This document shows, one piece after another, positions 7,966 through 61,346 of a DNA stretch of 64,000 nt (position 1 is its first letter; the number at the start of each line of letters is the position of its first letter). A program made the position numbers and the translations under genes. The notes under the pieces were generated by a model. That model worked only from the letters and a program-made list of their open reading frames with translations, had not been told where the DNA came from and ran no database searches. The stretch is from Escherichia phage PSa2, in the sequence record OL770310; one strand, written 5' to 3'.

Positions 7966-8193
7966 ATGGTGCATTCATCATCTTCTGCAATTTTTAACGG
8001 TATGGAATGGGTATCCGTTCCCGCTATTGTCAGCGTTATGGTTTCTGAATTTGGGATCGGTAAAACTTATGTTACCATTCAGGAGCTTTACGACAACGAC
8101 AAGATTGACCAGCAAACCGCCGGATTTTTGCTGGATGAATTGAAAGCTAACCATTGCACCAAAAAGCAAGCGGCAAAAATTGTTTTAATGTAA
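7966..8193 (+). CDS. hypothetical protein
   Basis: 75-aa ORF with RBS AGGAGG. Confidence 0.5.
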   Translation: MVHSSSSAIFNGMEWVSVPAIVSVMVSEFGIGKTYVTIQELYDNDKIDQQTAGFLLDELKANHCTKKQAAKIVLM

Positions 8194-38825: not shown

Positions 38826-39518
38826 TTATTTGTTAACGCGTACAAAGTATCCTTTATAAGCTCCAAGAATAGAGTTGCCTAAGAATACTAGCCACATTGC
38901 TAGGATTGCGTAAGATGCACCTGTAGATTGAGCAGTTACAAGCCAAATATATACAGTACCAATATTAATAGCAATCCAGATCAGCCACTGCTCGGCGTAC
39001 TGCTTAACCATAAGCCACATAGCGATCACACTACCTACCGCAGTAAATGCATCCAACATTGGGAATGGATCAGCCGTAGTAGCTAAGAAACTACCATACC
39101 CTAACGTGGCTACTGCTAGAATCCCTAGAGTTAGCAAAGCTTGGGCTTTAGTCAGAATCTTAGTTGGAACATCCGGCAGATTACTTGGCTTATTTTTATG
39201 CCATAAGTACATTCCATAAAACTGCATAGGAACGTAGTATAGCAGGTTTAGTGCAGCGTTACCATAAAGATCTGCGTTTAAAGCTGTAATACCATATGTA
39301 AGAACACCCACTAAGCCCCAAATATAGTTGGAAACACGTCCTTTTGCAACCAGAATAACACAAACCACATTGGTTATTGCAGTAGCCCAATCTAGAGCTG
39401 TACCATTATAGTTTGCTAAACTAATAAAGGCGACTGCTATAAACAGCCACAGATATTCCAGAGGTTTCCAGTTTTTAAAGTCATTTACGAGATAGTTAGT
39501 CATATTAAAACTCTCCAA
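38826..39518 (-). CDS. pnuC: nicotinamide riboside transporter PnuC-like
   Basis: 230-aa polytopic membrane ORF with PnuC-like pattern. Confidence 0.65.
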   Translation of the reverse strand: MESFNMTNYLVNDFKNWKPLEYLWLFIAVAFISLANYNGTALDWATAITNVVCVILVAKGRVSNYIWGLVGVLTYGITALNADLYGNAALNLLYYVPMQFYGMYLWHKNKPSNLPDVPTKILTKAQALLTLGILAVATLGYGSFLATTADPFPMLDAFTAVGSVIAMWLMVKQYAEQWLIWIAINIGTVYIWLVTAQSTGASYAILAMWLVFLGNSILGAYKGYFVRVNK

Positions 39519-40578
39519 CGTTAAAGTGATGAATCAGCCAGTCTACTGCGTTTACTGCTTCGTCCATACGAACTTTGTAGTCCGGAGAGTCGATGTAAAC
39601 AGTACGCCCTTCAGGGAACTGATTTGGAAATTCTTTCTTCATCTGCTCGAACAGTTCAGAAGTAATTGAACGATCGGAGTTAATACGTAAACCATCATCT
39701 ACCCACTTGACAGTAGGCGCTAGAACAATTACTAAATCGTAATGTTCTTCTTTTGCAATTGCTGTAACCACAGGGTTCTTACTATGTTCATAAAGTCTGT
39801 GGTAGAACTCAGTAATAAAAGCATTTGTATCCACAAACATGATCTTATTTGCAGTACGTTCTGCTTCAAACTCTAGCTCTTTGTGTCTGAACGCAATTTT
39901 ACTATAGTCTTCGCTGGTAAGCAGATTTTCGTTACCAACTAGATCAACTTCACAATACGTTCGGCCATATTCTTCTACCCACGAAGTGTTGTATAGCTTC
40001 GCAAGGTATTTTGTTAAAGTAGTCTTTCCTGAGCTTTCAGTCCCAATGATTACAACCTTACGCACGTAATCTTTACGAACTACGCTAGGAAGAAACTCCC
40101 AATACTTCATAAGATCATTACGAATCATTGTAGCTGAGACTGGAACACGAGTCCGATCAGAATCTACAATATAATGACCAAACTTCGGCAGATATTTCTT
40201 ATATTCTGCATCATAGTCTAGTTCGCTAGAGAAAATGGTGATCTCAGGCAAATGTCCGTAATTTTCATTAAGGATTCTAGCATATTCCGGCCAACCATTC
40301 GGATATTCAGGAATATCATCTTCAATAATGTACTCTACCGAAATGTGCTCAATATCCGCGTAAGTTTGTTCTAACCAACGAAGTCGATTCTTTAACTGTA
40401 ATACTTCCTGATCACGTGTGTTCTGCTTATCCAGCCAACGATTATCATGACTAACTACAATAATAACTCGTTCACACATAGTTGCTGCTGTGTTTATTAG
40501 GTTAATATGACCACGCGTTAATGGCGCGAACTTACCAATTACTAGACCAGTCTTAATCATATTTGATTCCTCTCTCAA
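39505..40578 (-). CDS. nadR: NadR-like bifunctional NMN adenylyltransferase / ribosylnicotinamide kinase
   Basis: 357-aa ORF; N-terminal GKFAPLTRGH motif, C-terminal Walker A GTESSGKTT. Confidence 0.65.
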   Translation of the reverse strand: MREESNMIKTGLVIGKFAPLTRGHINLINTAATMCERVIIVVSHDNRWLDKQNTRDQEVLQLKNRLRWLEQTYADIEHISVEYIIEDDIPEYPNGWPEYARILNENYGHLPEITIFSSELDYDAEYKKYLPKFGHYIVDSDRTRVPVSATMIRNDLMKYWEFLPSVVRKDYVRKVVIIGTESSGKTTLTKYLAKLYNTSWVEEYGRTYCEVDLVGNENLLTSEDYSKIAFRHKELEFEAERTANKIMFVDTNAFITEFYHRLYEHSKNPVVTAIAKEEHYDLVIVLAPTVKWVDDGLRINSDRSITSELFEQMKKEFPNQFPEGRTVYIDSPDYKVRMDEAVNAVDWLIHHFNVGEF

Positions 40579-40831: not shown

Positions 40832-41776
40832 TTACTTGTTACGCATATCCATGATCATTTGACCATCGTAGCCAGTACCAACAACAGTCTGCGGTACACC
40901 ACCTTGGTATTTTTCAGCACGAAGCATTTCAACTTCCAGCTGCTTCCAACGAATCATTTCAGGAGTAATGGTACGTTGCAGAGCGGCGTTAGCTTCAGCC
41001 TCTTTCTTAGCTGCGTACAGTTTAGCATCTGCGTCACGTTCGTTAGCTACTGCCATGTTTTCACGAGCGGAACGATCTGCCTCAGCTTGCTTAACTTTCT
41101 GCTGTGCTTCTTGTTCAACACGAGCCAGTTCAGCTTTTGCAGCGTTAACTTGTTCTTCACGAACTTTGGTGTTCTGTACCTGTTCCATGATTACCGGTGG
41201 CAGAGTAATATCCTGAAGGAATACTTGCTTAACGGTGTAACCATAAGGACGCGCATACTCTTCTACTTCTTGCTGAATAGCGGTTTGCAGTTGAGCCTGA
41301 ATCTTAGCGTCGAACAGATCTTGTGCTTTTGGTACAGACTTACCAAACTCACGAATCGTAGATAGCATCTTCTCTTCAACGTACTTGTTCAGAGCTTGAT
41401 CCTGAGTACCTGCGTTAACACGGTTCATAGGAGCTTTAGCTCCATCAAACTGCAACATAACGGTAATGTCAACAGTAGACTTAAACTTATCCTGGCTAGG
41501 AACCTGAAGTTTATCCAGTTTCATAGAAATATCTTTCGTACTAAAAGTATCAAAAGAAGCAAATGGGTTAACAATATGGAAGCCTGGCAATACAGGATTA
41601 GGGCTAACTTTACCCAGGAAAGTTTGGGTCTTAACAGTACCATCCTGAACAACTGTATAGGAATTGAGAGCCAGAATAAGAGCACCAAGACCAACAGCAG
41701 CACCAACACCCCAACGTTTAATAGTACGAATTACTTTTTGCTCAGAAGTCAGTTCTTTAGTGTTTTTAGTAAACAT
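40832..41776 (-). CDS. SPFH/band-7 (prohibitin/HflC-like) domain membrane protein
   Basis: 314-aa ORF; N-terminal TM, SPFH-like core, Ala/Glu/Gln-rich coiled coil. Confidence 0.55.
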   Translation of the reverse strand: MFTKNTKELTSEQKVIRTIKRWGVGAAVGLGALILALNSYTVVQDGTVKTQTFLGKVSPNPVLPGFHIVNPFASFDTFSTKDISMKLDKLQVPSQDKFKSTVDITVMLQFDGAKAPMNRVNAGTQDQALNKYVEEKMLSTIREFGKSVPKAQDLFDAKIQAQLQTAIQQEVEEYARPYGYTVKQVFLQDITLPPVIMEQVQNTKVREEQVNAAKAELARVEQEAQQKVKQAEADRSARENMAVANERDADAKLYAAKKEAEANAALQRTITPEMIRWKQLEVEMLRAEKYQGGVPQTVVGTGYDGQMIMDMRNK

Positions 41777-41787
41777 ATATTTCCTTA

Positions 41788-41988
41788 TTATTTAGAAGAG
41801 TTAGCTACTACAGTTACTTTAGTTGCAGAAATAAACAGGCTAGCATCCACAGCAAATTCAGGAGCTTTGATATCTCCATTATGAAATATGACTATACCGG
41901 AGACTACTTCAAATGCTAGTGCTGTAACATCGGTGGTATTTACTTGTGAATGTTCACCTACTACTTTTACTATATATCGTGTTTTCAC
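41788..41988 (-). CDS. hypothetical protein
   Basis: 66-aa ORF. Confidence 0.4.
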   Translation of the reverse strand: MKTRYIVKVVGEHSQVNTTDVTALAFEVVSGIVIFHNGDIKAPEFAVDASLFISATKVTVVANSSK

Positions 41989-46789: not shown

Positions 46790-47059
46790 TTACTTGCCAA
46801 GCAGTTTAAGGATATTTTCCTTAATAGTTTGAGCAGATTTTTCACTCTTATTGGTTTCAGCCAGTTTCAGAGCGAGTTCTTCCTGCTGTTTCTGAATATC
46901 AGCAGCAGTTTTCTGATCAGCTTCAATACGAGCTTGAAGTTCGTCAGTAATAGTGGTAAAGGAAGCAACGATTTCAGTAACGGAACGTGGTTTCTTAGAG
47001 AACATAAAATATCCTTGATTAGTCAGAGAAAGAGTTAGTATATGGGGCTTTCGCCCCAT
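46790..47059 (-). CDS. coiled-coil small protein
   Basis: track ORF begins at TTG 47062; ATG at 47059. Confidence 0.45.
   Translation of the reverse strand: MGRKPHILTLSLTNQGYFMFSKKPRSVTEIVASFTTITDELQARIEADQKTAADIQKQQEELALKLAETNKSEKSAQTIKENILKLLGK
47043..47058 (-). terminator. intercistronic hairpin TGGGGC-TTTC-GCCCCA
   Basis: overlaps start region of 46790-47059. Confidence 0.35.
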
Positions 47060-47065
47060 CAATCA

Positions 47066-47590
47066 TTACTTCGCTTTACGCTTACGAGCAGGTTTAGCGG
47101 ATTTAGCGGATTTACGATCAGAAGCACCAGTAAACTTAATACCGATACCATAGCACAGAGCGCGAACGTTGTCACGGCTATACTCTACCCCGAAGATATT
47201 CGGTTTAATGGAGCCAAACTGTCCACGGGATTCACGCATTACGTCGGCCATTGGCTTACGCTTCTGATTGACTGCTTTTTCGTAGTCTTTCAGAGCCATA
47301 CCGTTGCGGGCGAACATCTCAGCACCGCCGTTAAAGCTCAGAGTTACCGGTACAGACTTATGACCTTCACCCTTGATGAACACAACCTGCTTAGCAGTTG
47401 CGCGAGTAGAGTTCTTGGCCTTCGGCTTCTGGCGAACCGGAGCCGCAGACTTCAGGGCAGTCTGAGCCTGAGCATCAGTAGGATGCTTACGCAGATGACG
47501 TTCCAGACGAGCCTTACGATTGGCTTCGGTCTGAGCGAAAGTTTTAACTGCCGGAGCTGCCTGAGTTTTTGCGTTTTTCTGCTTAGCCAT
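47066..47590 (-). CDS. basic Lys/Ala-rich protein (possible nucleic-acid-binding)
   Basis: 174-aa ORF. Confidence 0.5.
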   Translation of the reverse strand: MAKQKNAKTQAAPAVKTFAQTEANRKARLERHLRKHPTDAQAQTALKSAAPVRQKPKAKNSTRATAKQVVFIKGEGHKSVPVTLSFNGGAEMFARNGMALKDYEKAVNQKRKPMADVMRESRGQFGSIKPNIFGVEYSRDNVRALCYGIGIKFTGASDRKSAKSAKPARKRKAK

Positions 47591-52443: not shown

Positions 52444-54834
52444 TTACAGGTTACAACCACCTGATGCACAACCTGCTGCTTCTTCACCAGCTCCACCACC
52501 ATTTTCAGTGTTGAAGTTAGCGTAGTACCAAGTTTTCCAACCGTACTTAACAGCAGTCATGAAATCACGAACTACTACTGGACCAGGAATGATTTCATTC
52601 TCAAACTTGGTGTAGTCATAGTACATATTTGTACTGATAGACTGACTGAAAAATTTCTGCATGGTTGCTACCCATTTGATCCACTCGATACGATCTACAT
52701 CATAAGCCAGTTTATAGCTCATTAATGTATCCCAATTAGTTGCACCTGGAGCAATTGCAATTACTTTATTCACTGCACTACCCTTGATAGATACGATCTT
52801 ACGAGGCGGTTCGATAGAGTTAGTAACACCTAGCAGTACAGAGGAACTTTCACCTGGCATCTGAGCAGTCAGAACAGAGTTACGCATACCATATTTCAGA
52901 ATATCTGCACGCAGAGATTCCCAATCCATTTCTAGACCTACAGTTACCAGTTCATCAACAGTTTTCTTATACGTGTCGATTACCAGAGTTCCTTGTGAAG
53001 GCTTAGTACGATTAAACCAGTCACATGCACCCTGTTCTTTGGCCAGACGTACAGAGGCTTTGTGCAGGAAGTAGGACAGCTTTTCAGCTTCACGGTGAAT
53101 CCAGTTACGTGCTTCAACACCTTCGTAAGCCAAACCTTCTGCTGCCATTGCACCTGCTGCGTTCATCAGACCAATACCAACGTTACGACGTTTCTTAGCC
53201 GTGTATTCCATAGTTGGGAATGGATAATCCTGAATCTCAATGATTGTATCAACGAATTTCAGAAGGATGTAGCAAGTTTTCTCCCATTCAGCCAGAGATT
53301 CCATGCGGCCTAGTACAACACCACCTAAGTTACACAGAGATACTTCACCAATATCTTCTGGACGCATATCGTCTAACTGATCTTGGGTTTTATACAGTTC
53401 CGTAACGTGATGGAATGGACGGGTTGGCTGAGTAATTTCAACACAAAGGTTGGTCATACGAATCGGGTCAAGGAAGTTACCATGACGGTTAGATTCACCA
53501 ATGTGATGAGCATACATACGCCCTGTTTCCATACGGATACGTAACCAAGTATCTAGGATTTCTTTTGCAGAGATTCTAGGAGCTGCTGGAATTGTTTTTC
53601 CTTCGTGGTCGATCTTTGTAAGAGATGCCACACGTTTCTCCGCTGCCACGTAGATTTCTTCAAACTTAGCCTCATCTTCACCATAAAACGCTTCATGAAC
53701 TTCTGGTGCGTAGAAGTAGGACATTAGCGTAATATCTTCGTTTTTCAGGTAACGTTTTAACAGAAGGTTGTTAAAGCTCAGAGAATAATCCATCTTATCG
53801 ATTTTATTCTCGTCTGTAGCACGTTGCTGCTTAACCTGCATCAACTGAATGATTTCAGGATCGAAGTATGGATAAGACACAGTAGCAGAACCGCCACGGG
53901 TTTGCTGAGTGTTAGCTTTTACTGAACGGTCAATGTGTCGATAATATGGCAGTTTTCCGGAATGCGGGAATGCCCCATTTCGCACCGGATCAGCAATTGA
54001 TCGGCTTTCAAGATGATACCCGATTCCCGCTCTGGCTGCGACCATTTTGAAGACGATATGCTCGGCTGTGTCGATTGAATCGAGGGTATCAGTACTATCA
54101 ACAAGACAACAAGAAGCAAAACCGCGGTCGCTGCTCCTAAGACCCACGAGAGGTGGAGTCGGCACGTTGATTTTATGGAGTGACATTGCGTTGTAGAGGT
54201 CGATTGCATCGAGAATTGTCCAGTTAGGTTGAGATAACATCGCCATTGCCATACCCATATAGGCAAACTGCGGGGTTTCATAAATTTCACCAGTTGCAAT
54301 ATTACGACGAGAATACTTGTCGAAGAACTGTTTCAGTCCACCACTGGTGAATAAACGATCACGATCATGATCAATAACTTGGTTCAGAGCGTCAAACTGA
54401 TCATCGCTAATCCATGCACTCATGTCTTCCCAAGCGCCTGCACGAACCATATGATCGTGGAAGAAACGCAGAGAAGGAGGTTCAAAGGAATCATATAGGC
54501 GTTTACGCATCTGCGCAAGACGTAATTCCTTTGCTACAGTATCATATGCTGGGTTGTCTTTGATAAGACCTTCAGCGGCTTTAATTAACACATCTTGGAG
54601 TGTATCGGAGTCTACAACACCTTTGGGTAGATTTTTCAGGGCAGCCATAACTACGGCAGACCAACTTACGTCAGTATCTTTACATGCCCATGCAGCCCAA
54701 TCATTGAGTTTTTCAGGAGCAAAGTCCTGAACAGTACCGTCACGTTTAATTACTTTTTCGATGCGATGGCTCATTTGGCTTTCCTTTTTGTAGTTATCAG
54801 GATTTAGGAAATATTCTACTTTGTTTTGGGTCAT
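52444..54834 (-). CDS. nrdA: ribonucleotide reductase large subunit (class Ia)
   Basis: 796-aa ORF; N-terminal ATP-cone (VIKRDGTVQDF), RNR core. Confidence 0.85.
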   Translation of the reverse strand: MTQNKVEYFLNPDNYKKESQMSHRIEKVIKRDGTVQDFAPEKLNDWAAWACKDTDVSWSAVVMAALKNLPKGVVDSDTLQDVLIKAAEGLIKDNPAYDTVAKELRLAQMRKRLYDSFEPPSLRFFHDHMVRAGAWEDMSAWISDDQFDALNQVIDHDRDRLFTSGGLKQFFDKYSRRNIATGEIYETPQFAYMGMAMAMLSQPNWTILDAIDLYNAMSLHKINVPTPPLVGLRSSDRGFASCCLVDSTDTLDSIDTAEHIVFKMVAARAGIGYHLESRSIADPVRNGAFPHSGKLPYYRHIDRSVKANTQQTRGGSATVSYPYFDPEIIQLMQVKQQRATDENKIDKMDYSLSFNNLLLKRYLKNEDITLMSYFYAPEVHEAFYGEDEAKFEEIYVAAEKRVASLTKIDHEGKTIPAAPRISAKEILDTWLRIRMETGRMYAHHIGESNRHGNFLDPIRMTNLCVEITQPTRPFHHVTELYKTQDQLDDMRPEDIGEVSLCNLGGVVLGRMESLAEWEKTCYILLKFVDTIIEIQDYPFPTMEYTAKKRRNVGIGLMNAAGAMAAEGLAYEGVEARNWIHREAEKLSYFLHKASVRLAKEQGACDWFNRTKPSQGTLVIDTYKKTVDELVTVGLEMDWESLRADILKYGMRNSVLTAQMPGESSSVLLGVTNSIEPPRKIVSIKGSAVNKVIAIAPGATNWDTLMSYKLAYDVDRIEWIKWVATMQKFFSQSISTNMYYDYTKFENEIIPGPVVVRDFMTAVKYGWKTWYYANFNTENGGGAGEEAAGCASGGCNL

Positions 54835-56246: not shown

Positions 56247-58121
56247 ATGAATCGCAATGAAGAACTAAAGTATAAAGGAATGCAGTCCTTGATTCGAAAC
56301 TGCAAAGAAATTATCGAAGGTTCAGCAGATGAAGAACTGCTGTTTAATAATGCCAATAAGCCCTCAGAACGTTTCCCTACACAAAGGGACATGCTTGCAG
56401 GGGAATTGAGTAAATATCTGATTCTGGAAGAAATGCCAATCCAGATTCGAAATGCTCACATGATTGGTGATATTCACTTCCATGATGCTGATTACGCTGC
56501 GTTAGGTATGACTAACTGTTGCCTGGTTGCTTTGGAAGATATGTTGAAAAACGGTATGAAGGTTGGTAATGCTGAAATCAGTACGCCAAACTCCATTACT
56601 ACTGCGGCTGCTATTACAGCTCAGATTATTACTCAGGTTAGCTCCCATCAATATGGTGGTACTTCTGTAGACCGATTAGATGAAGTACTGGCTCCTTATG
56701 TTCGTAAGTCTTATGATAAGAATCATGCGTTTGCAAAGCGTTGGACTAAGGATGAAGCCAAAGCATCTGTAATGGCTACGGAAATGACTGAGAAAGAAGT
56801 TTACGATGCCTGTCAAGGTCTAGAGTATGAAATCAATACGATGTTCAACTCTAATGGTCAGAGTCCATTTATTACCTTTGGTTTTGGTCTAGGAACTTCC
56901 TGGGAAGCACGTCTTGTACAGAAAGCAATCTTAGAAGTGCGTATGGATGGTTTGGGTATCAATAAACGTACAGCTATCTTCCCTAAACTGGTATTTGTTT
57001 TGCGTGATGGCGTAAACATGAAACCTGGTGATGTTAACTATGATATCAAGAAGTTAGCTATGAAATGTACTGCTGAACGTATGTATCCTGACTACATCAG
57101 TTATGATAAGGTTGTAGAAGTTACGGGAGACTACAAAGTCTCTATGGGCTGTCGTTCATTCCTGGCTGCTGCGGAAGATGGTGAAACTTCTGGTCGTAAC
57201 AACTTAGGCGTTGTTTCCGTAAACCTTCCTCGAATCGCTATCGAAGCGGAAGGAAATATTGATCTATTCTTCGATCTGCTTGAGCTGCGTGTGGATACCG
57301 CGTTAAAAGCATTGGAGTGGAGGGTTGATCGCTTAAAATACATTCAAGCTAAAGCTGCGCCCATCCTCTATATGTCAGGAGCCTTTGGATTACGTCTGGG
57401 ACCCGATGAATATGTATTTGATCATTTCTACAAGCGTGCTTCTGTATCTCTAGGATATATTGGTTGCCACGAAATGTTGCAGCTCATGTTTGGTAAAGAT
57501 GTAGATACAATGTCTGAGTCTTGTATCAAGTTCGTTCAACGTGTGCTACAATATATGCGTGATCGTGCTGATCAGAAGAAGGAAGAGACTCAATTAGGTT
57601 ATAGTCTGTATGCTACACCATCTGAATCTCTATGTGATCGCTTTTGTCGCCTAGACCGTGAGTATTTCCCAGAGCATGAAGATATTCTGGCTAAAGGATA
57701 TTACACTAACTCCCATCACCTTGATGTAGAACGTAAGGTTGCTCCAAACGTGAAGTTTGATTATGAGTCTAACTTTACCCCTATTGCTTCTGGTGGGTGC
57801 ATTTCCTATGTGGAACTACCGGATATGAAACGATTCCCAGATGCGCTGGAATGGGTTATTAACTATGCCGCAAGTAAAGTTCATTACTTCGGTATTAATA
57901 CTCCAGTAGACTCTTGTGGGGAATGTGGGTTCTTGGGTGAAACTATAGCTTCTGAGGATGGTTTCAAATGCCCTATTTGTGGCAACCATGATCCTGAGAC
58001 TCTTGAGGTAACTCGTCGAGTTTGTGGCTATCTTGGAAATCCAGGTGCTCGTCCGTTTAACCCAGGTAAACAACATGAGGTTATGGGTCGAGTGAAACAT
58101 CAGGACATTCGCGCTAAATAA
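56247..58121 (+). CDS. nrdD: anaerobic ribonucleoside-triphosphate reductase
   Basis: 624-aa ORF; C-terminal glycyl-radical motif RRVCGYLG; RBS AGGAGGG. Confidence 0.85.
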   Translation: MNRNEELKYKGMQSLIRNCKEIIEGSADEELLFNNANKPSERFPTQRDMLAGELSKYLILEEMPIQIRNAHMIGDIHFHDADYAALGMTNCCLVALEDMLKNGMKVGNAEISTPNSITTAAAITAQIITQVSSHQYGGTSVDRLDEVLAPYVRKSYDKNHAFAKRWTKDEAKASVMATEMTEKEVYDACQGLEYEINTMFNSNGQSPFITFGFGLGTSWEARLVQKAILEVRMDGLGINKRTAIFPKLVFVLRDGVNMKPGDVNYDIKKLAMKCTAERMYPDYISYDKVVEVTGDYKVSMGCRSFLAAAEDGETSGRNNLGVVSVNLPRIAIEAEGNIDLFFDLLELRVDTALKALEWRVDRLKYIQAKAAPILYMSGAFGLRLGPDEYVFDHFYKRASVSLGYIGCHEMLQLMFGKDVDTMSESCIKFVQRVLQYMRDRADQKKEETQLGYSLYATPSESLCDRFCRLDREYFPEHEDILAKGYYTNSHHLDVERKVAPNVKFDYESNFTPIASGGCISYVELPDMKRFPDALEWVINYAASKVHYFGINTPVDSCGECGFLGETIASEDGFKCPICGNHDPETLEVTRRVCGYLGNPGARPFNPGKQHEVMGRVKHQDIRAK

Positions 58122-58219: not shown

Positions 58220-58501
58220 ATGAGTGAATTGCTTCCTAAAGTAGATGTTTCCCATCTTGGAGAGCCTAGTGAAGAACGTAAGGCTCTAGATTGGTTGGGC
58301 GGATTTGATTATCGTCGTGTTGTTGCAACATGGAATGATAAGAAAGTTAAGAAGTTTCGGGTACATTATGTAGGTAAAGACAAGTGGCTCTGGATTGATT
58401 ATGAAGAATCGAAGGGGTCTACTAAGGCTGTGAAAATTTATCGTATGTATGGGTATTATTATGCTCACTGTGATAAGAATGAATTTACAGTACAGAACTA
58501 A
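58220..58501 (+). CDS. hypothetical protein
   Basis: 93-aa ORF with GAGAGGAG RBS. Confidence 0.5.
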   Translation: MSELLPKVDVSHLGEPSEERKALDWLGGFDYRRVVATWNDKKVKKFRVHYVGKDKWLWIDYEESKGSTKAVKIYRMYGYYYAHCDKNEFTVQN

Positions 58502-58714: not shown

Positions 58715-58877
58715 TTTAGAAAATATGCTCATGGAGCAGTGGAATGCTGGGTATAATGCTGGAGTAGCTACCTGTATTGCTGGTTTGGATATGCTTATTA
58801 AGCAAGAGAAGGTTCGCCCAGAAGAAGCAATTCTGCTCCAAAATATCATCGAAGGATTCAAGCAAGGAATCGTATAA
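58683..58877 (+). CDS. hypothetical protein
   Basis: track ORF 58599-58877 trimmed to internal Met preceded by GGAGGA. Confidence 0.4.
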   Translation: MDFLNQNLKSNLENMLMEQWNAGYNAGVATCIAGLDMLIKQEKVRPEEAILLQNIIEGFKQGIV

Positions 58878-59092
58878 TGCGTAGACTAATCGTTGTTAGT
58901 GGTGCAGGTTTGAGTGTAGATAGTGGTGTTCGTGCTTTCCGTACTGATACTGCTAGTGGGAAATCCTTGTGGGATGAGTACGATCTAGAGGAAGTATGTA
59001 ATATTCATGCCTTTCGTGGTAATTTTACCATAAAACTCATATGTTTTACAACAAACGTCGTGAAGAGTTACAAACTGTTGAACCTAACCTAG
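58877..59092 (+). CDS. Sir2-family NAD-dependent deacylase, N-terminal fragment (frame-interrupted)
   Basis: VVSGAGLSVDSGVRAFR matches sirtuin GAGIS..SGI..FR motif; ORF ends soon after a T4 run. Confidence 0.5.
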   Translation: MRRLIVVSGAGLSVDSGVRAFRTDTASGKSLWDEYDLEEVCNIHAFRGNFTIKLICFTTNVVKSYKLLNLT

Positions 59093-59691
59093 CTCATTTG
59101 CGTATTGGTGAATGGTATAAACGGTATCCAAATCAAGTGGTAAACCTTACTACCAATGTTGATGATCTAATCGAACGTGCTGGAGTGCCGAGAGAAGATA
59201 TACTCCATATTCATGGATATCTGAAAGAAATTATTGTAGAGCATGCGTTCGACCAGACACGTGATGTTATTGATATTGGGTATAGTTCTATTGATCCAGA
59301 TGACTTTGATTGGGTTAAACCTAACGTTATCTTCTTTGGTGAGGTTGCTCCTGCCTATAAAACAATGTATGAGGTTTTTGATGGTATCACCAGTCATGAT
59401 ATGATCATCATTGTTGGGTGCTCTAACCAAGTAATTAACTTCTACTGGGAGCTATTTCCTGTTCTGAATCTTACTGCTGCAAAACTTATGGTAGTTAACT
59501 ATTACGATAGTGCAGTAGCTATGGAACCAGGCTATCAGGGCATGACTCGTAGTGAAATGTATCAGTTAGAAGAACGTGGTATTCCTTACTGGAGTAAAGG
59601 TGCTGTGGATGCCTTTAGTGATCCCGATTTTATTGCTCGTGTGGAAGCTCATCTAGAAGGTAAACCCTATGTTCAACAAAAGCATGTGTGA
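59041..59691 (+). CDS. Sir2-family NAD-dependent deacylase, C-terminal part
   Basis: FYNKRREEL, NVDDLIERAG, HIHG, VIFFGE collinear with CobB-type sirtuins; frame is -1 relative to N-terminal fragment. Confidence 0.55.
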   Translation: MFYNKRREELQTVEPNLAHLRIGEWYKRYPNQVVNLTTNVDDLIERAGVPREDILHIHGYLKEIIVEHAFDQTRDVIDIGYSSIDPDDFDWVKPNVIFFGEVAPAYKTMYEVFDGITSHDMIIIVGCSNQVINFYWELFPVLNLTAAKLMVVNYYDSAVAMEPGYQGMTRSEMYQLEERGIPYWSKGAVDAFSDPDFIARVEAHLEGKPYVQQKHV

Positions 59692-59851
59692 TCTTTTAGT
59701 GTGGCCGGATGGTAGTTGGTGCTACCGTTTCGAATTTGCTACCGATGATTTCTCATGGAAGAGTGATGATTTCTGTGTTATCTATGAAGATACAGCAGAA
59801 TGGAAAGAGTTCCTTATTAAGGAGGGAGAATATGGTGAAGAAGATTTTTAA
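59669..59851 (+). CDS. hypothetical acidic protein
   Basis: 60-aa ORF. Confidence 0.35.
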   Translation: MFNKSMCDLLVWPDGSWCYRFEFATDDFSWKSDDFCVIYEDTAEWKEFLIKEGEYGEEDF

Positions 59852-60017
59852 GGGTATCTGGAAAGGTCTAGTATGGTTTGTCAACCTAATCGGTATGATT
59901 ACCATTTATTCTCTGTTCCTATCTGTTATGTGGGGTAAAGGTGAGCTGAAGGTTCCAGTTCCTTTTACTGATGAAGTTAAAGTCTGGACGTGGGATGCTA
60001 CTGGTGGAAATAAGTAA
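59832..60017 (+). CDS. small membrane protein
   Basis: track ORF 59709-60017 trimmed to Met preceded by AGGAGGGAG. Confidence 0.45.
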   Translation: MVKKIFKGIWKGLVWFVNLIGMITIYSLFLSVMWGKGELKVPVPFTDEVKVWTWDATGGNK

Positions 60018-60510
60018 TACTCCTATAATTTTCCTGGATATTGATGGGGTGCTCAATTCGAGCATCTCTCACCATCATGCTCCAGATAGTGAAAAGCTAT
60101 TCTTTGGTAGTGATTGGGTTTATAAGCCATTACTCCAGGCTTTTCAGAACTTCCTTAAACCTTCTCCAATAATGATTGTTGGGGTATCTTCATGGTTTTC
60201 TGTACGAAACGAGATGGAGAACGTCCAGATTATGACCGGACTCGGTTTGATCGATCGTTTCCTTGGTACAACAGATTTTACTGGAGGTGGTTTATCTCGA
60301 GGTAATTCTGTCTTACGTTTCGTAGAAAAACATAAGCTCAAGCATTGGTGCGTCCTAGATGATGCTGGTGCTATGATGTACCAATTTCCTACTGTTATTG
60401 TAAATGGCAGGACTGGAATAAACCTTCAAGATTTAAATACTATCAGCTATATGCTGGAATTTAGTCCAGATCTTGAAATGTGTAAGGCTCTTCAGAAACT
60501 CAAGGTGTAA
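59971..60510 (+). CDS. HAD-like phosphatase
   Basis: 179-aa ORF; HAD motif I FLDIDGVLN; exact start uncertain. Confidence 0.5.
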   Translation: MKLKSGRGMLLVEISNTPIIFLDIDGVLNSSISHHHAPDSEKLFFGSDWVYKPLLQAFQNFLKPSPIMIVGVSSWFSVRNEMENVQIMTGLGLIDRFLGTTDFTGGGLSRGNSVLRFVEKHKLKHWCVLDDAGAMMYQFPTVIVNGRTGINLQDLNTISYMLEFSPDLEMCKALQKLKV

Positions 60511-60512
60511 AT

Positions 60513-60941
60513 ATGTTCGATAATCTTTTCATGAAAGAGGTAAATCCTATGCTCCTCAACTTCTGGCGTTCTCTCCCTAATGGTATGTATAATGAAACCA
60601 TCAATCTGCTCAAGATTTGGTGTGAGAATAACGATATCTTCTTATCCTTTAAAGGCCCACTAGAGGAAGCTCCGTGTATTGGAGTTAGCGTGGATTTAGG
60701 GGAGGGAGTAGAAGAGATTGTAGACTGGAAAGAACTCGATGAAATGGGTCTGGTTTTTGCCTTGAACCATAAGCTGTTTATGCCTGCAAATCACCGTCTT
60801 ATTGTAAATTATCGCACTGGTGAAGCTCCTGCTTTCCAGGTAAATGAACGTGAGGGCTGGTCATATTCGCCCGAGGAAGTAAATGAGGGGATTCAGAAAC
60901 TTCGTCGTTTCGGGTATATGATCCCAGGTTTAACTGCTTAA
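60513..60941 (+). CDS. hypothetical protein (paralog pair member 1)
   Basis: 142-aa ORF; shares WxELxxMGL...TGExP...PGL pattern with next ORF. Confidence 0.5.
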   Translation: MFDNLFMKEVNPMLLNFWRSLPNGMYNETINLLKIWCENNDIFLSFKGPLEEAPCIGVSVDLGEGVEEIVDWKELDEMGLVFALNHKLFMPANHRLIVNYRTGEAPAFQVNEREGWSYSPEEVNEGIQKLRRFGYMIPGLTA

Positions 60942-60950
60942 GGAGGCAGA

Positions 60951-61346
60951 ATGGAACAAGTATTTTGGCGTCAGATAGATCCTAGTTTGGTAGAGCGTGC
61001 TGAGGGGCTCCTTGCACGTTGGTTGGGGGTTGACAAGGTTAGTGTAACATTTCCGTTTACTTCTGTAACAGACCCTAGTGTAGGTGTCTTTGTGGACGAA
61101 GATGAAGATGATGGTTGGGAAGCTGACTGGAATGAATTGTCCAGCATGGGCTTGATTGTTGCCCTCAACTTCTCTATATTCCACCCACGTGGTTTAGCTA
61201 TTACACGTGATCCCGAAACCGGTGAATCCCCTTATCTTTTGCAAGTAGAAGATGATATTTGGGAGTACACCGAAGGTATTCTCGAAGAAGCTAAAGGTCA
61301 ATTAAATCGTATTGGGATCTATGTCCCGGGCCTAAATGATGATTGA
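60951..61346 (+). CDS. hypothetical protein (paralog pair member 2)
   Basis: 131-aa ORF with AGGAGG RBS. Confidence 0.5.
   Translation: MEQVFWRQIDPSLVERAEGLLARWLGVDKVSVTFPFTSVTDPSVGVFVDEDEDDGWEADWNELSSMGLIVALNFSIFHPRGLAITRDPETGESPYLLQVEDDIWEYTEGILEEAKGQLNRIGIYVPGLNDD

What the first reader, a model, noticed from the sequence alone, without database searches (positions are those of the whole stretch)
58877..59691. Sir2-like NAD-dependent deacylase gene split by a -1 frameshift at a T4 run
ORF 58877-59092 carries the sirtuin Rossmann start motif (VVSGAGLSVDSGVRAFR) and ORF 59041-59691 carries the following conserved blocks (FYNKRREEL, NVDDLIERAG, HIHG, VIFFGE). They are in different frames and join across AATTTTAC at 59021-59028: reading ...HAFRGNF then shifting -1 gives YHKTHMFYNKRR... 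. This is either a homopolymer error, a pseudogene or programmed frameshifting. A phage Sir2 next to an NAD salvage module is notable because Sir2 domains are common NAD-depleting effectors in defence systems.
Basis: partly seen in the sequence, partly recalled or inferred. Interest (0 to 1): 0.6.

Follow-up and report, generated by a model that had tools for sequence, protein, structure and literature searches.

The report
Frameshift-broken sirtuin gene in T5-like phage
A sirtuin-like gene that is intact in hundreds of T5-like phages is cut in two here by the loss of one T from a run of five; this is an ordinary, recent inactivating mutation shared with phage Eps7, not programmed frameshifting.

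Summary
ORF 58877-59092 (71 aa) and ORF 59041-59691 (216 aa) are the two halves of one Sir2/CobB-like gene, separated by a -1 frame change at AATTTTAC (59021-59028). Intact relatives read AATTTTTAC and encode one 816-nt, 271-aa gene, so the cause is a one-base deletion (T5 to T4). The window matches Escherichia phage PSa2, a T5-like Epseptimavirus. The T4 allele was found in only one other genome, Eps7, out of about 400 phage records carrying this gene. The two phages are identical over the 951 nt that contain it, and their flanks differ by 2-6%. Upstream of that block the window carries sequence from another phage lineage, so the allele has passed through recombination and is probably real. 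Changes specific to this haplotype are 7 synonymous to 1 non-synonymous, so the break is young. Programmed frameshifting is not supported: there is only a bare U_UUU tetramer, no slippery heptamer, no downstream RNA structure, and no conservation. The published rate for such sites is about 0.15%. The 216-aa fragment lacks the NAD-binding GAGxS/FR segment and has no ribosome-binding site. The "adjacent NAD salvage module" (PnuC+NadR, the published NARP3) lies 18 kb away on the other strand. Ordinary; low interest.

The parts
58877..59691 (+). Whole disrupted Sir2/CobB-like gene (815 nt; 816 nt and 271 aa in intact relatives)
58877..59092 (+). ORF1: 50 native N-terminal residues (Rossmann strand 1, GAGLS, AFR cofactor loop) followed by 21 out-of-frame residues and a premature TAG at 59090-59092. 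AAGGA lies 8 nt upstream of the ATG, and the ATG overlaps the stop of the upstream ORF (TAATG).
   Evidence: exact product is UIR90687.1 of Escherichia phage PSa2
59023..59026 (+). T4 run, site of the one-base deletion (T5 in intact relatives). It is also the only site where a -1 slip of tRNA-Phe (UUU to UUU) would restore the exact wild-type protein.
   Evidence: Alignments; allele counts
59041..59691 (+). ORF2: Sir2 residues 55-271 (FYNKRR helix, TNVDD, catalytic HIHG, VIFFGE, VGCS). No Shine-Dalgarno sequence lies before its ATG, and no earlier start codon exists in this frame.
   Evidence: product identical to Eps7 ACB97560.1 and PSa2 UIR90688.1
58994..59944 (.). 951-nt block identical to phage Eps7. 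It contains the T4 run, the rest of Sir2 and the next small ORF, and it is the longest identical run between the two genomes.
58960..58993 (+). Window-specific patch of 8 SNPs (codons 28-39) whose haplotype matches another Sir2 lineage. It marks a recombination junction about 25 nt upstream of the T4 run.

Best explanation
The gene is a conserved accessory Sir2/CobB-like gene of T5-like phages that has recently lost one T from a T5 run (AAT TTT TAC to AAT TTT ACC). Ribosomes starting at 58877 make a 71-aa peptide and stop at 59090. The downstream 216-aa frame has no ribosome-binding site and lacks the GAGxS/FR NAD-binding segment. The phage is therefore a natural null, or at most a severe hypomorph, for this enzyme. 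Spontaneous -1 slippage of tRNA-Phe on U_UUU would yield the exact wild-type protein, but only at roughly 0.1-0.2% of translation. The allele arose once on a haplotype now shared by Eps7 and this phage (PSa2), and it has been carried through recombination. Shown here: the anatomy, the one-base cause, the rarity of the allele, the shared identical block, the chimeric upstream junction, and the lack of frameshift signals. Inferred: that the base is truly absent in the phage DNA, that the product is non-functional, and that the gene is dispensable under the conditions these phages experienced.
For: (1) The only length difference from intact relatives is one T. KFSSM, SB6, bombadil, Th1, Spc35, AKFV33 and phiR2-01 each carry a single 816-819-nt ORF. 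(2) T4 is found only in Eps7 among 50,697 phage records, while T5 is found in at least 50 records with the same local sequence. Two IMG/VR contigs carry T5. The 71-aa product is on record only for PSa2 and Eps7 among about 15 billion proteins. (3) The window and Eps7 are identical over 58994-59944 in a background of 2-6% divergence; this is the longest of 603 identical runs, with a median of 14 nt. They share 7-8 derived SNPs absent from 4-5 outgroups. (4) The window does not share Eps7's roughly 50 other 1-nt indels, so it is not a copy of the Eps7 record. Immediately upstream it carries a patch 100% identical to more than 100 other phages, making the gene a natural chimera. (5) The window's assembly looks sound. 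Of 11 isolated 1-nt indels against SB6, 7 are intergenic, 3 lie within 21 nt of a CDS end, and only Sir2 is deep in a gene (coding fraction 0.79; P(4 or fewer of 11 in CDS) = 0.003). Only 2 of 117 shared ORFs are frame-disrupted. (6) Derived changes downstream of the break are 7 synonymous to 1 non-synonymous (P about 1e-4 under neutrality), so there is no decay. (7) Homologues occur in 997 phage records, 852 of them near full length in one place. The intact state is the norm, and sporadic breaks occur elsewhere (INF11 at about codon 130).
Against: No reads are available, so the base call cannot be verified. Eps7 is itself an indel-rich record, which weakens it as independent confirmation. The 7:1 synonymous excess is equally expected if the frameshift is old but the gene is still expressed through recoding. 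Zero divergence between the two carriers means selection after the frameshift cannot be tested. Nothing here measures protein output or dispensability.
Confidence: 0.75

Rival explanations
1. Sequencing or assembly artefact: the phage DNA really has T5 and the gene is intact. The missing T would be a homopolymer under-call, or was carried over from the Eps7 record during reference-guided assembly or polishing.
For: The difference is a one-base homopolymer length change. Eps7 (a 2008 record) shows about 50 such indels relative to the window, with truncated nrdA, phoH and DHFR annotations. PSa2's product names copy those of Eps7, so Eps7 was used at least for annotation. Another record, MET_P1-197_41, shows how error-derived splits look in this gene.
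Against: The window shares none of Eps7's other indels. Its own indels avoid coding sequence as real polymorphisms do. A T4/T5 run is short for a consensus-level miscall. Records with the identical 49-nt context all read T5, so there is no context-specific systematic error. The block sits in a fine-scale natural mosaic. Error-type records show several scattered deletions (five in MET_P1-197_41), not one.
Confidence: 0.13
2. Compensatory or programmed -1 ribosomal frameshifting at U_UUU_A restores the reading frame at a biologically useful level, so the gene remains functional, possibly at a deliberately low dose.
For: A -1 slip of tRNA-Phe from UUU (59024-59026) to UUU (59023-59025) re-pairs perfectly and yields exactly the wild-type sequence GNFYHK. 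U_UU.U is among the more shift-prone tetramers when a pseudoknot is present (PMC4066793). 'Savior indel plus low-level frameshifting' has precedent in HSV thymidine kinase (PMC5009743). The 7:1 synonymous excess is compatible with continued selection.
Against: There is no X_XXY_YYZ heptamer (the site reads U_AAU_UUU). Tetramers without a stimulator gave 0.147% against 0.112% background in E. coli. The 104 nt downstream fold no better than shuffles (z = -0.48). The flanks are identical to those of intact relatives, so nothing has evolved to promote shifting. The allele is seen in only two genomes, which share one identical block. A 4-nt run is too short for transcriptional slippage (my own knowledge; known productive runs are 6-9 nt or longer).
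Confidence: 0.06
3. Functional split enzyme: the 71-aa and 216-aa products are both made, the second by reinitiation after ORF1 terminates 51 nt downstream of its ATG, and they assemble non-covalently into an active sirtuin.
For: The two ORFs overlap by 52 nt, so termination-reinitiation is conceivable. Together they carry all the conserved motifs. phiR2-01 annotators chose the same internal ATG.
Against: There is no Shine-Dalgarno sequence before 59041. Residues 51-54 would be lost and 21 junk residues added. The cut separates Rossmann strand 1 and the GAGxS/FR loop from the rest of the fold (alignment to CobB). phiR2-01 actually has the full ORF open. No relative other than Eps7 has two ORFs.
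Confidence: 0.03

Closest known systems
Sir2-like protein of phage T5 and other Demerecviridae (phrog_2162; e.g. T5 YP_006930.1, bombadil QIN99464.1, SB6 QDB70783.1)
   Same: Orthologous gene at the same position, downstream of nrdD and upstream of a HAD-like gene. The repaired protein is 98% identical to bombadil's and matches phrog_2162 end to end.
   Different: Here, and in Eps7, one T is missing, which gives two ORFs instead of one 271-aa product.
E. coli CobB, NAD-dependent protein deacylase (PDB 1S5P, 6RXJ)
   Same: Best solved-structure match by sequence (E 8e-19), aligned over residues 3-187 and continuous across the junction. GAGxS, FR, the N-x-D motif and the catalytic His (HIHG against HMHG) are conserved.
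   Different: The phage protein has only two cysteines (41 and 182), so it lacks the Cys4 zinc module. QNID is TNVD. There is an extra C-terminal region of about 80 aa. Activity and substrate are unknown.
Frameshift 'savior indel' alleles with leaky decoding (HSV thymidine kinase G-run mutants; reviewed in PMC5009743)
   Same: A one-base change in a homopolymer of a viral accessory enzyme, where slippage at the same run would recreate the wild-type protein.
   Different: The run is only 4 nt, against 7-8 G in HSV TK. No selective agent is known and no leaky product has been shown.
Programmed -1 frameshift sites of bacteria and phages (dnaX A_AAA_AAG; IS3/IS911; phage tail chaperone G/GT)
   Same: A -1 frame relation between two overlapping ORFs, with a run of identical bases at the overlap.
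   Different: There is no heptamer, no Shine-Dalgarno or structural stimulator at functional spacing, and no conservation. The two frames encode one ancestral domain, not a core plus an extension.

Membership tests
Sirtuin / Sir2 family (Pfam PF02146) | Profile match above the curated threshold, covering the domain | tested here: met
   The repaired 271-aa protein scores 82.9 bits against a cut-off of 24, over profile positions 1-178 of 180. ORF2 alone scores 54.5 bits. ORF1 alone scores 18.5 bits, below the cut-off.
Sirtuin / Sir2 family (Pfam PF02146) | Rossmann GAGxS motif and FR cofactor-loop residues | tested here: met
   SGAGLSVDSGVRAFR aligns to CobB TGAGISAESGIRTFR. In this window these residues are on ORF1 only.
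Sirtuin / Sir2 family (Pfam PF02146) | Catalytic histidine (HG motif) and N-x-D NAD-ribose contacts | tested here: met
   HIHG aligns to CobB HMHG, and TNVDDL aligns to QNIDNL. These residues are on ORF2 only.
Sirtuin / Sir2 family (Pfam PF02146) | Cys4 zinc-binding small domain of canonical sirtuins | tested here: not met
   There are only two cysteines in the whole protein (positions 41 and 182). The region aligned to CobB's Cys-containing segment has none. The same holds for the intact relatives' sequences.
Sirtuin / Sir2 family (Pfam PF02146) | NAD-dependent deacylase, ADP-ribosyltransferase or NADase activity | not testable with these tools
   Needs an enzyme assay on the repaired protein or an intact orthologue.
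Programmed -1 ribosomal frameshift site | Slippery heptamer X_XXY_YYZ allowing tandem re-pairing | tested here: not met
   The frame-0 codons are GGU AAU UUU ACC, so the heptamer would be U_AAU_UUU. Only the tetramer U_UUU is slippery.
Programmed -1 ribosomal frameshift site | Stimulatory element (downstream stem-loop or pseudoknot, or an upstream SD-like sequence at about 10-14 nt) | tested here: not met
   59027-59130 folds at -18.4 kcal/mol against -17.1 +/- 2.7 for shuffles, z = -0.48. The only SD-like string (GUGGU, 59016-59020) lies 3 nt from the shift codon, not at the -1 spacing.
Programmed -1 ribosomal frameshift site | Conservation of the two-frame arrangement among relatives | tested here: not met
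   The arrangement is present only in Eps7 and this window, within one identical 951-nt block. At least 50 records read T5 in the same context, and 59 of 60 sampled homologues are a single piece.
Programmed -1 ribosomal frameshift site | Trans-frame protein product detected | not testable with these tools
   Needs mass spectrometry, western blot or a reporter assay.
Recent frameshift (pseudogene) allele of a conserved gene | Intact orthologues exist, and a single indel accounts for the disruption | tested here: met
   Inserting one T restores a 271-aa ORF that is 98% identical to bombadil's.
Recent frameshift (pseudogene) allele of a conserved gene | Secondary decay (further stops or indels, relaxed dN/dS) if the lesion is old | tested here: not met
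   There is no second lesion. Lineage-specific changes are 7 synonymous to 1 non-synonymous. The lesion is therefore young, or the gene is still under selection.
Recent frameshift (pseudogene) allele of a conserved gene | The base is truly absent in the phage DNA (not a sequencing error) | tested here: inconclusive
   Indirect support comes from the shared haplotype, the recombinant context and selection-filtered indels elsewhere. No reads are available.

The most novel reading that the evidence does not exclude
The T4 allele is kept because switching off, or strongly dosing down, an NAD-consuming phage sirtuin is advantageous in some hosts, for example where NAD-depleting defences operate and the phage depends on its NARP3 NAD-rebuilding cassette. 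In this reading, about 0.1% slippage at U_UUU, or reversion from T4 to T5, supplies the exact wild-type enzyme when needed. That would make it a 'savior indel' or crude on/off switch in a lytic phage.
Probability: 0.05. Interest if true: 0.45.

Novelty: already known. Interest (0 to 1): 0.12.

Why it matters
It matters little for biology at large. The gene family is known and annotated in hundreds of T5-like phages, and the split is already visible as two adjacent CDSs in the public Eps7 and PSa2 records. Three modest uses remain. First, annotation hygiene: the two CDSs should be one frameshifted gene, and 'putative transferase' is a misnomer for the N-terminal piece. Second, Eps7 and PSa2 are ready-made natural knock-outs of the uncharacterised, zinc-less T5-type sirtuin. 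They could be compared with near-isogenic T5-allele phages to learn what the enzyme does, including its interplay with the NARP3 NAD-rebuilding cassette in the same genome. Third, the allele shows that this sirtuin is dispensable for propagation on laboratory hosts.

Tried and rejected
(a) A selection test after the frameshift was not possible, because the two carriers are identical from codon 40 to the stop. (b) The 'Sir2 (x2)' labels in RefSeq for Th1, Spc35, L6jm, SaI_NFG_5581 and MET_P1_179_112 looked like further splits. They are not: the second 'Sir2' is the downstream HAD-like gene, mislabelled through phrog_18062. (c) phiR2-01's 216-aa annotation looked like an independent two-ORF case, but the full 271-aa frame is open there (AAT TTC TAC). 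(d) MET_P1-197_41 has CDSs with the same geometry, but its break is a different deletion 10 nt upstream, one of five in the gene, which marks it as a poor assembly. (e) The metagenome scan returned one 28-nt hit that is a chance match in unrelated DNA, and the genome scan returned none. (f) The Eps7 genome paper (PMC9021807) is not held, and no paper on Escherichia phage PSa2 was found. (g) A downstream frameshift-stimulating structure was rejected. (h) I did not run the large protein-database searches or a structure prediction, because the phage-record comparisons already answered the question.

Full report
**1. What is in the sequence**

The region holds two overlapping ORFs on the + strand: 58877-59092 (71 aa) and 59041-59691 (216 aa). 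The second is in the -1 frame relative to the first. AATTTTAC lies at 59021-59028. The -1 frame opens at 59023, just after a TAA at 59020-59022. Frame 0 ends at TAG 59090-59092.

Pfam SIR2 (PF02146) matches the pieces as consecutive parts of one domain:
- ORF1: profile positions 1-37 (E 2e-3, below threshold on its own).
- ORF2: positions 48-178 (E 1.8e-14).
- The protein made by stepping back one base after ...GNF: one continuous domain at positions 1-178 (82.9 bits, E 3.5e-23).

The joined protein aligns without interruption to E. coli CobB (1S5P, E 8e-19) across the junction: FRGNFYHKTHMFYNKRREELQ against FDRD-PELVQAFYNARRRQLQ. It also matches phrog_2162 'Sir2' end to end (E 2e-115).

**2. 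Which genome, and what relatives look like**

The window is a T5-like phage of the genus Epseptimavirus (Demerecviridae). It is 97-98% identical to SB6, PMBT27, GRNsp8, Eps7 and 3-29 over 19 kb. The exact 71-aa and 216-aa products are on record as UIR90687.1 and UIR90688.1 of Escherichia phage PSa2.

In KFSSM, SB6, bombadil, AKM_ECS, Th1, Spc35, AKFV33 and phiR2-01 the same locus is a single 816-819-nt ORF of about 271 aa. Alignment shows the only length difference: relatives read GGT AAT TTT TAC CAT, and the window reads GGT AAT TTT ACC. Inserting one T restores a 271-aa protein that is 98% identical to bombadil's.

Homologues are widespread, in 997 phage records, 852 of them near full length in one place. 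In a 60-record spread sample, 59 are a single piece. So the intact gene is the norm and is conserved.

**3. How rare the T4 allele is**

- A 48-nt query in which every 28-mer seed spans the T4 run hit only Eps7 (one genome, two accessions) among 50,697 phage records.
- The T5 version hit 50 records.
- Two IMG/VR contigs with this local sequence both carry T5.
- The metagenome scan gave only a chance hit, and the genome scan gave none.
- Among about 15 billion proteins, the 71-aa ORF is on record only for PSa2 and Eps7.

Several apparent further splits dissolved on inspection:
- RefSeq 'Sir2 (x2)' labels include the downstream HAD-like gene.
- phiR2-01 is intact but was annotated from the internal ATG.
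- MET_P1-197_41 has five scattered one-base deletions and an intact T5 run, which points to a poor assembly.
- INF11 is broken at about codon 130, an independent event.

**4. Real mutation or error?**

The window and Eps7 differ by 8 nt in the gene, all in codons 28-39. From 58994 to 59944 (951 nt) they are identical, while the flanks differ by 2-6%. This is the longest of 603 identical runs between the two genomes; the next is 594 nt and the median is 14 nt. Within the block they share 7-8 derived SNPs not seen in four or five outgroups. So they carry one distinctive haplotype, and the deletion arose once on it.

Eps7 is an indel-rich record. It has about 50 one-base differences from the window, several inside nrdA, and truncated annotations for nrdA, phoH and DHFR. 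By itself it is weak evidence. But the window shares none of those other indels, so it is not a copy of the Eps7 record.

The window's own assembly looks clean:
- Only 2 of 117 ORFs shared with SB6 are frame-disrupted.
- Of 11 strictly isolated one-base indels against SB6, 7 are intergenic, 3 lie within 21 nt of a CDS end, and only Sir2 is deep inside a gene.
- The coding fraction is 0.79, so P(4 or fewer of 11 in CDS) = 0.003. That is the signature of selection-filtered real polymorphism, not random error.

Finally, the 8-SNP patch just upstream (58960-58993) is 100% identical to more than 100 other T5-like phages with a different Sir2 lineage. The window's gene is therefore a natural chimera, with a junction about 25 nt upstream of the T4 run. 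The T4-bearing block has taken part in recombination in nature.

I put a real mutation at about 0.75-0.8 and an artefact, including reference carry-over, at about 0.13. Only reads can settle this.

**5. How old, and is it decaying?**

Derived changes on the window+Eps7 haplotype downstream of the break are 7 synonymous and 1 non-synonymous (Q174H) in the repaired frame. With 20.7% of random changes synonymous, P(7 or more of 8) is about 1e-4. There is no second lesion.

The gene therefore evolved as an intact coding sequence for essentially all of this lineage's history. Either the break is very recent or the gene is still under selection despite it. These data cannot separate the two, because the two carriers show no divergence after the break.

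**6. Is it programmed frameshifting?**

The evidence is against it.
- The site is a bare U_UUU tetramer, and the heptamer would be U_AAU_UUU.
- In E. coli, Z_ZZN tetramers without a stimulator gave 0.147% -1 frameshifting against 0.112% for non-shifty controls (Sharma et al. 2014, PMC4066793).
- The 104 nt downstream fold no better than shuffled sequence (z = -0.48).
- The flanks are identical to those of intact relatives, which need no shifting.
- The arrangement is not conserved (section 3).
- A 4-nt run is too short for transcriptional slippage (my own knowledge).

A slip of tRNA-Phe from UUU to the overlapping UUU would recreate exactly the wild-type protein, so a trace of full-length enzyme of the order of 0.1% is expected. 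The review by Atkins et al. (PMC5009743) describes such 'savior indel plus leaky decoding' cases. That remains the most novel reading not excluded, at about 5%.

**7. Consequence for the protein**

ORF1 has a good start: AAGGA 8 nt upstream, and TAATG coupling to the preceding ORF. It contributes only residues 1-50 (Rossmann strand 1, GAGLS, AFR) plus 21 unrelated residues. ORF2 starts at Met55 within the FYNKRR helix. It has no Shine-Dalgarno sequence and no earlier start codon in its frame. It lacks the GAGxS/FR NAD-binding residues, which are required in sirtuins (established knowledge; alignment). A functional two-piece enzyme is therefore unlikely, at about 3%.

**8. Context**

The gene sits downstream of nrdD (56247-58121) and three small ORFs. 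It lies upstream of a HAD_SAK_2-type gene (59971-60510) and two DUF7415 paralogues.

The NAD salvage genes are PnuC (38826-39518) and a NadR-like NMN adenylyltransferase/NR kinase (39505-40578) on the minus strand. They are about 18 kb away, with RNase H, thyA, DHFR, nrdB, nrdA, phoH and nrdD in between. This pair is the recently published NARP3 NAD-reconstitution counter-defence cassette (PMC13464706). So the link 'Sir2 next to an NAD salvage module' holds only at the level of the genome.

By sequence the protein is nearest to CobB/Sir2Af/SIRT5-type deacylases. It has only two cysteines and so no Cys4 zinc site. Its activity is unknown.

**9. Verdict**

This is a correctly observed but ordinary feature: a recent one-base deletion that breaks a conserved accessory sirtuin gene. 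It is shared with Eps7 and is already visible as two adjacent CDSs in public records. Programmed frameshifting is not supported. Interest is low (0.12). Its main value is as an annotation correction and as a natural knock-out for anyone studying the T5-type sirtuin.

Noticed in passing
window 59971-60510 (+): The gene downstream of Sir2 is a HAD-family protein (Pfam HAD_SAK_2, E 5e-19; DIDGVLN motif). Its orthologues are labelled 'Sir2 (NAD-dependent deacetylase)' in several RefSeq and other records (Eps7 AGC_0120, Th1 gp093, Spc35_0095, SaI_NFG_5581). The mislabel traces to phrog_18062, a 92-aa profile annotated 'Sir2' that in fact matches this protein's C-terminus. In Tequintavirus the HAD gene overlaps the end of Sir2 by 20 nt, which suggests co-expression.
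   Followed up: partly
window 38826-40578 (-): A PnuC-like NMN/NR transporter (38826-39518) and a NadR-like NMNAT plus NR kinase (39505-40578) form the two-gene NARP3 NAD-reconstitution cassette described in 2026 (PMC13464706). A Band_7/SPFH protein follows at 40832-41776.
   Followed up: partly
window 58877-59691 (repaired protein), and relatives in L002-L004: The T5-type phage sirtuin has only two cysteines (positions 41 and 182), so it lacks the Cys4 zinc module of canonical sirtuins. It keeps GAGxS, FR, N-x-D and the catalytic His. QNID is replaced by TNVD.
   Followed up: partly
window 58960-58993: Eight SNPs within 34 nt set the window apart from Eps7, KFSSM and SB6. The haplotype (58940-59000) is 100% identical to more than 100 other T5-like phages (bobsandoy, bux, ende, 118970_sal2 and others) whose Sir2 is otherwise divergent. 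This is a fine-scale recombination patch ending about 25 nt before the T4 run.
   Followed up: yes
L015 (Eps7 CP000917 36000-66000) against window 35381-64000: Eps7 differs from the window by about 50 one-base indels, many in homopolymers and several inside nrdA (window 53206-54478). Its annotation has truncated nrdA (1230 against 2394 nt), phoH (300 against 753 nt) and DHFR (411 against 528 nt). The 2008 record probably contains many sequencing errors.
   Followed up: partly
L007 (PV785641.1 MET_P1-197_41) 601-1411: The Sir2 gene of this 41.7-kb record has five scattered one-base deletions and is annotated as three fragments ('sirtuin-5', 'cobB', hypothetical). This is the pattern of an error-prone assembly.
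   Followed up: yes
L008 (phiR2-01 HE956708.2) 601-1416; L014 (INF11 PV692321.1) 301-1130: phiR2-01's Sir2 is annotated as 216 aa from the internal ATG, although the full 271-aa frame is open. INF11 has an independent split of its Sir2 homologue at about codon 130, annotated as two 'NAD+ binding protein' CDSs.
   Followed up: partly
window 8161; 47006; 58414: Other frame-affecting homopolymer differences against SB6. A5 against A6 at 8161 changes the last ~20 aa of an 87-aa ORF. A4 against A5 at 47006 lies at the 5' end of ORF 46790-47062 and is window-specific, since Eps7 and SB6 both have A5. SB6 has a 2-nt G-run insertion at 58414 that truncates its copy of the 93-aa ORF 58220-58501.
   Followed up: partly
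window 41850 and 47093: In-frame 9-nt tandem-repeat copy-number differences against SB6. The window lacks one CAGCAAATT unit at 41850 and has one extra TTTAGCGGA unit at 47093. Eps7 also differs at the second site.
   Followed up: no
window 60513-60941 and 60951-61346 (+): Two adjacent paralogous genes each carry two DUF7415 repeats (Pfam PF24187, E 9e-37 and 3e-28). Their function is unknown.
   Followed up: no
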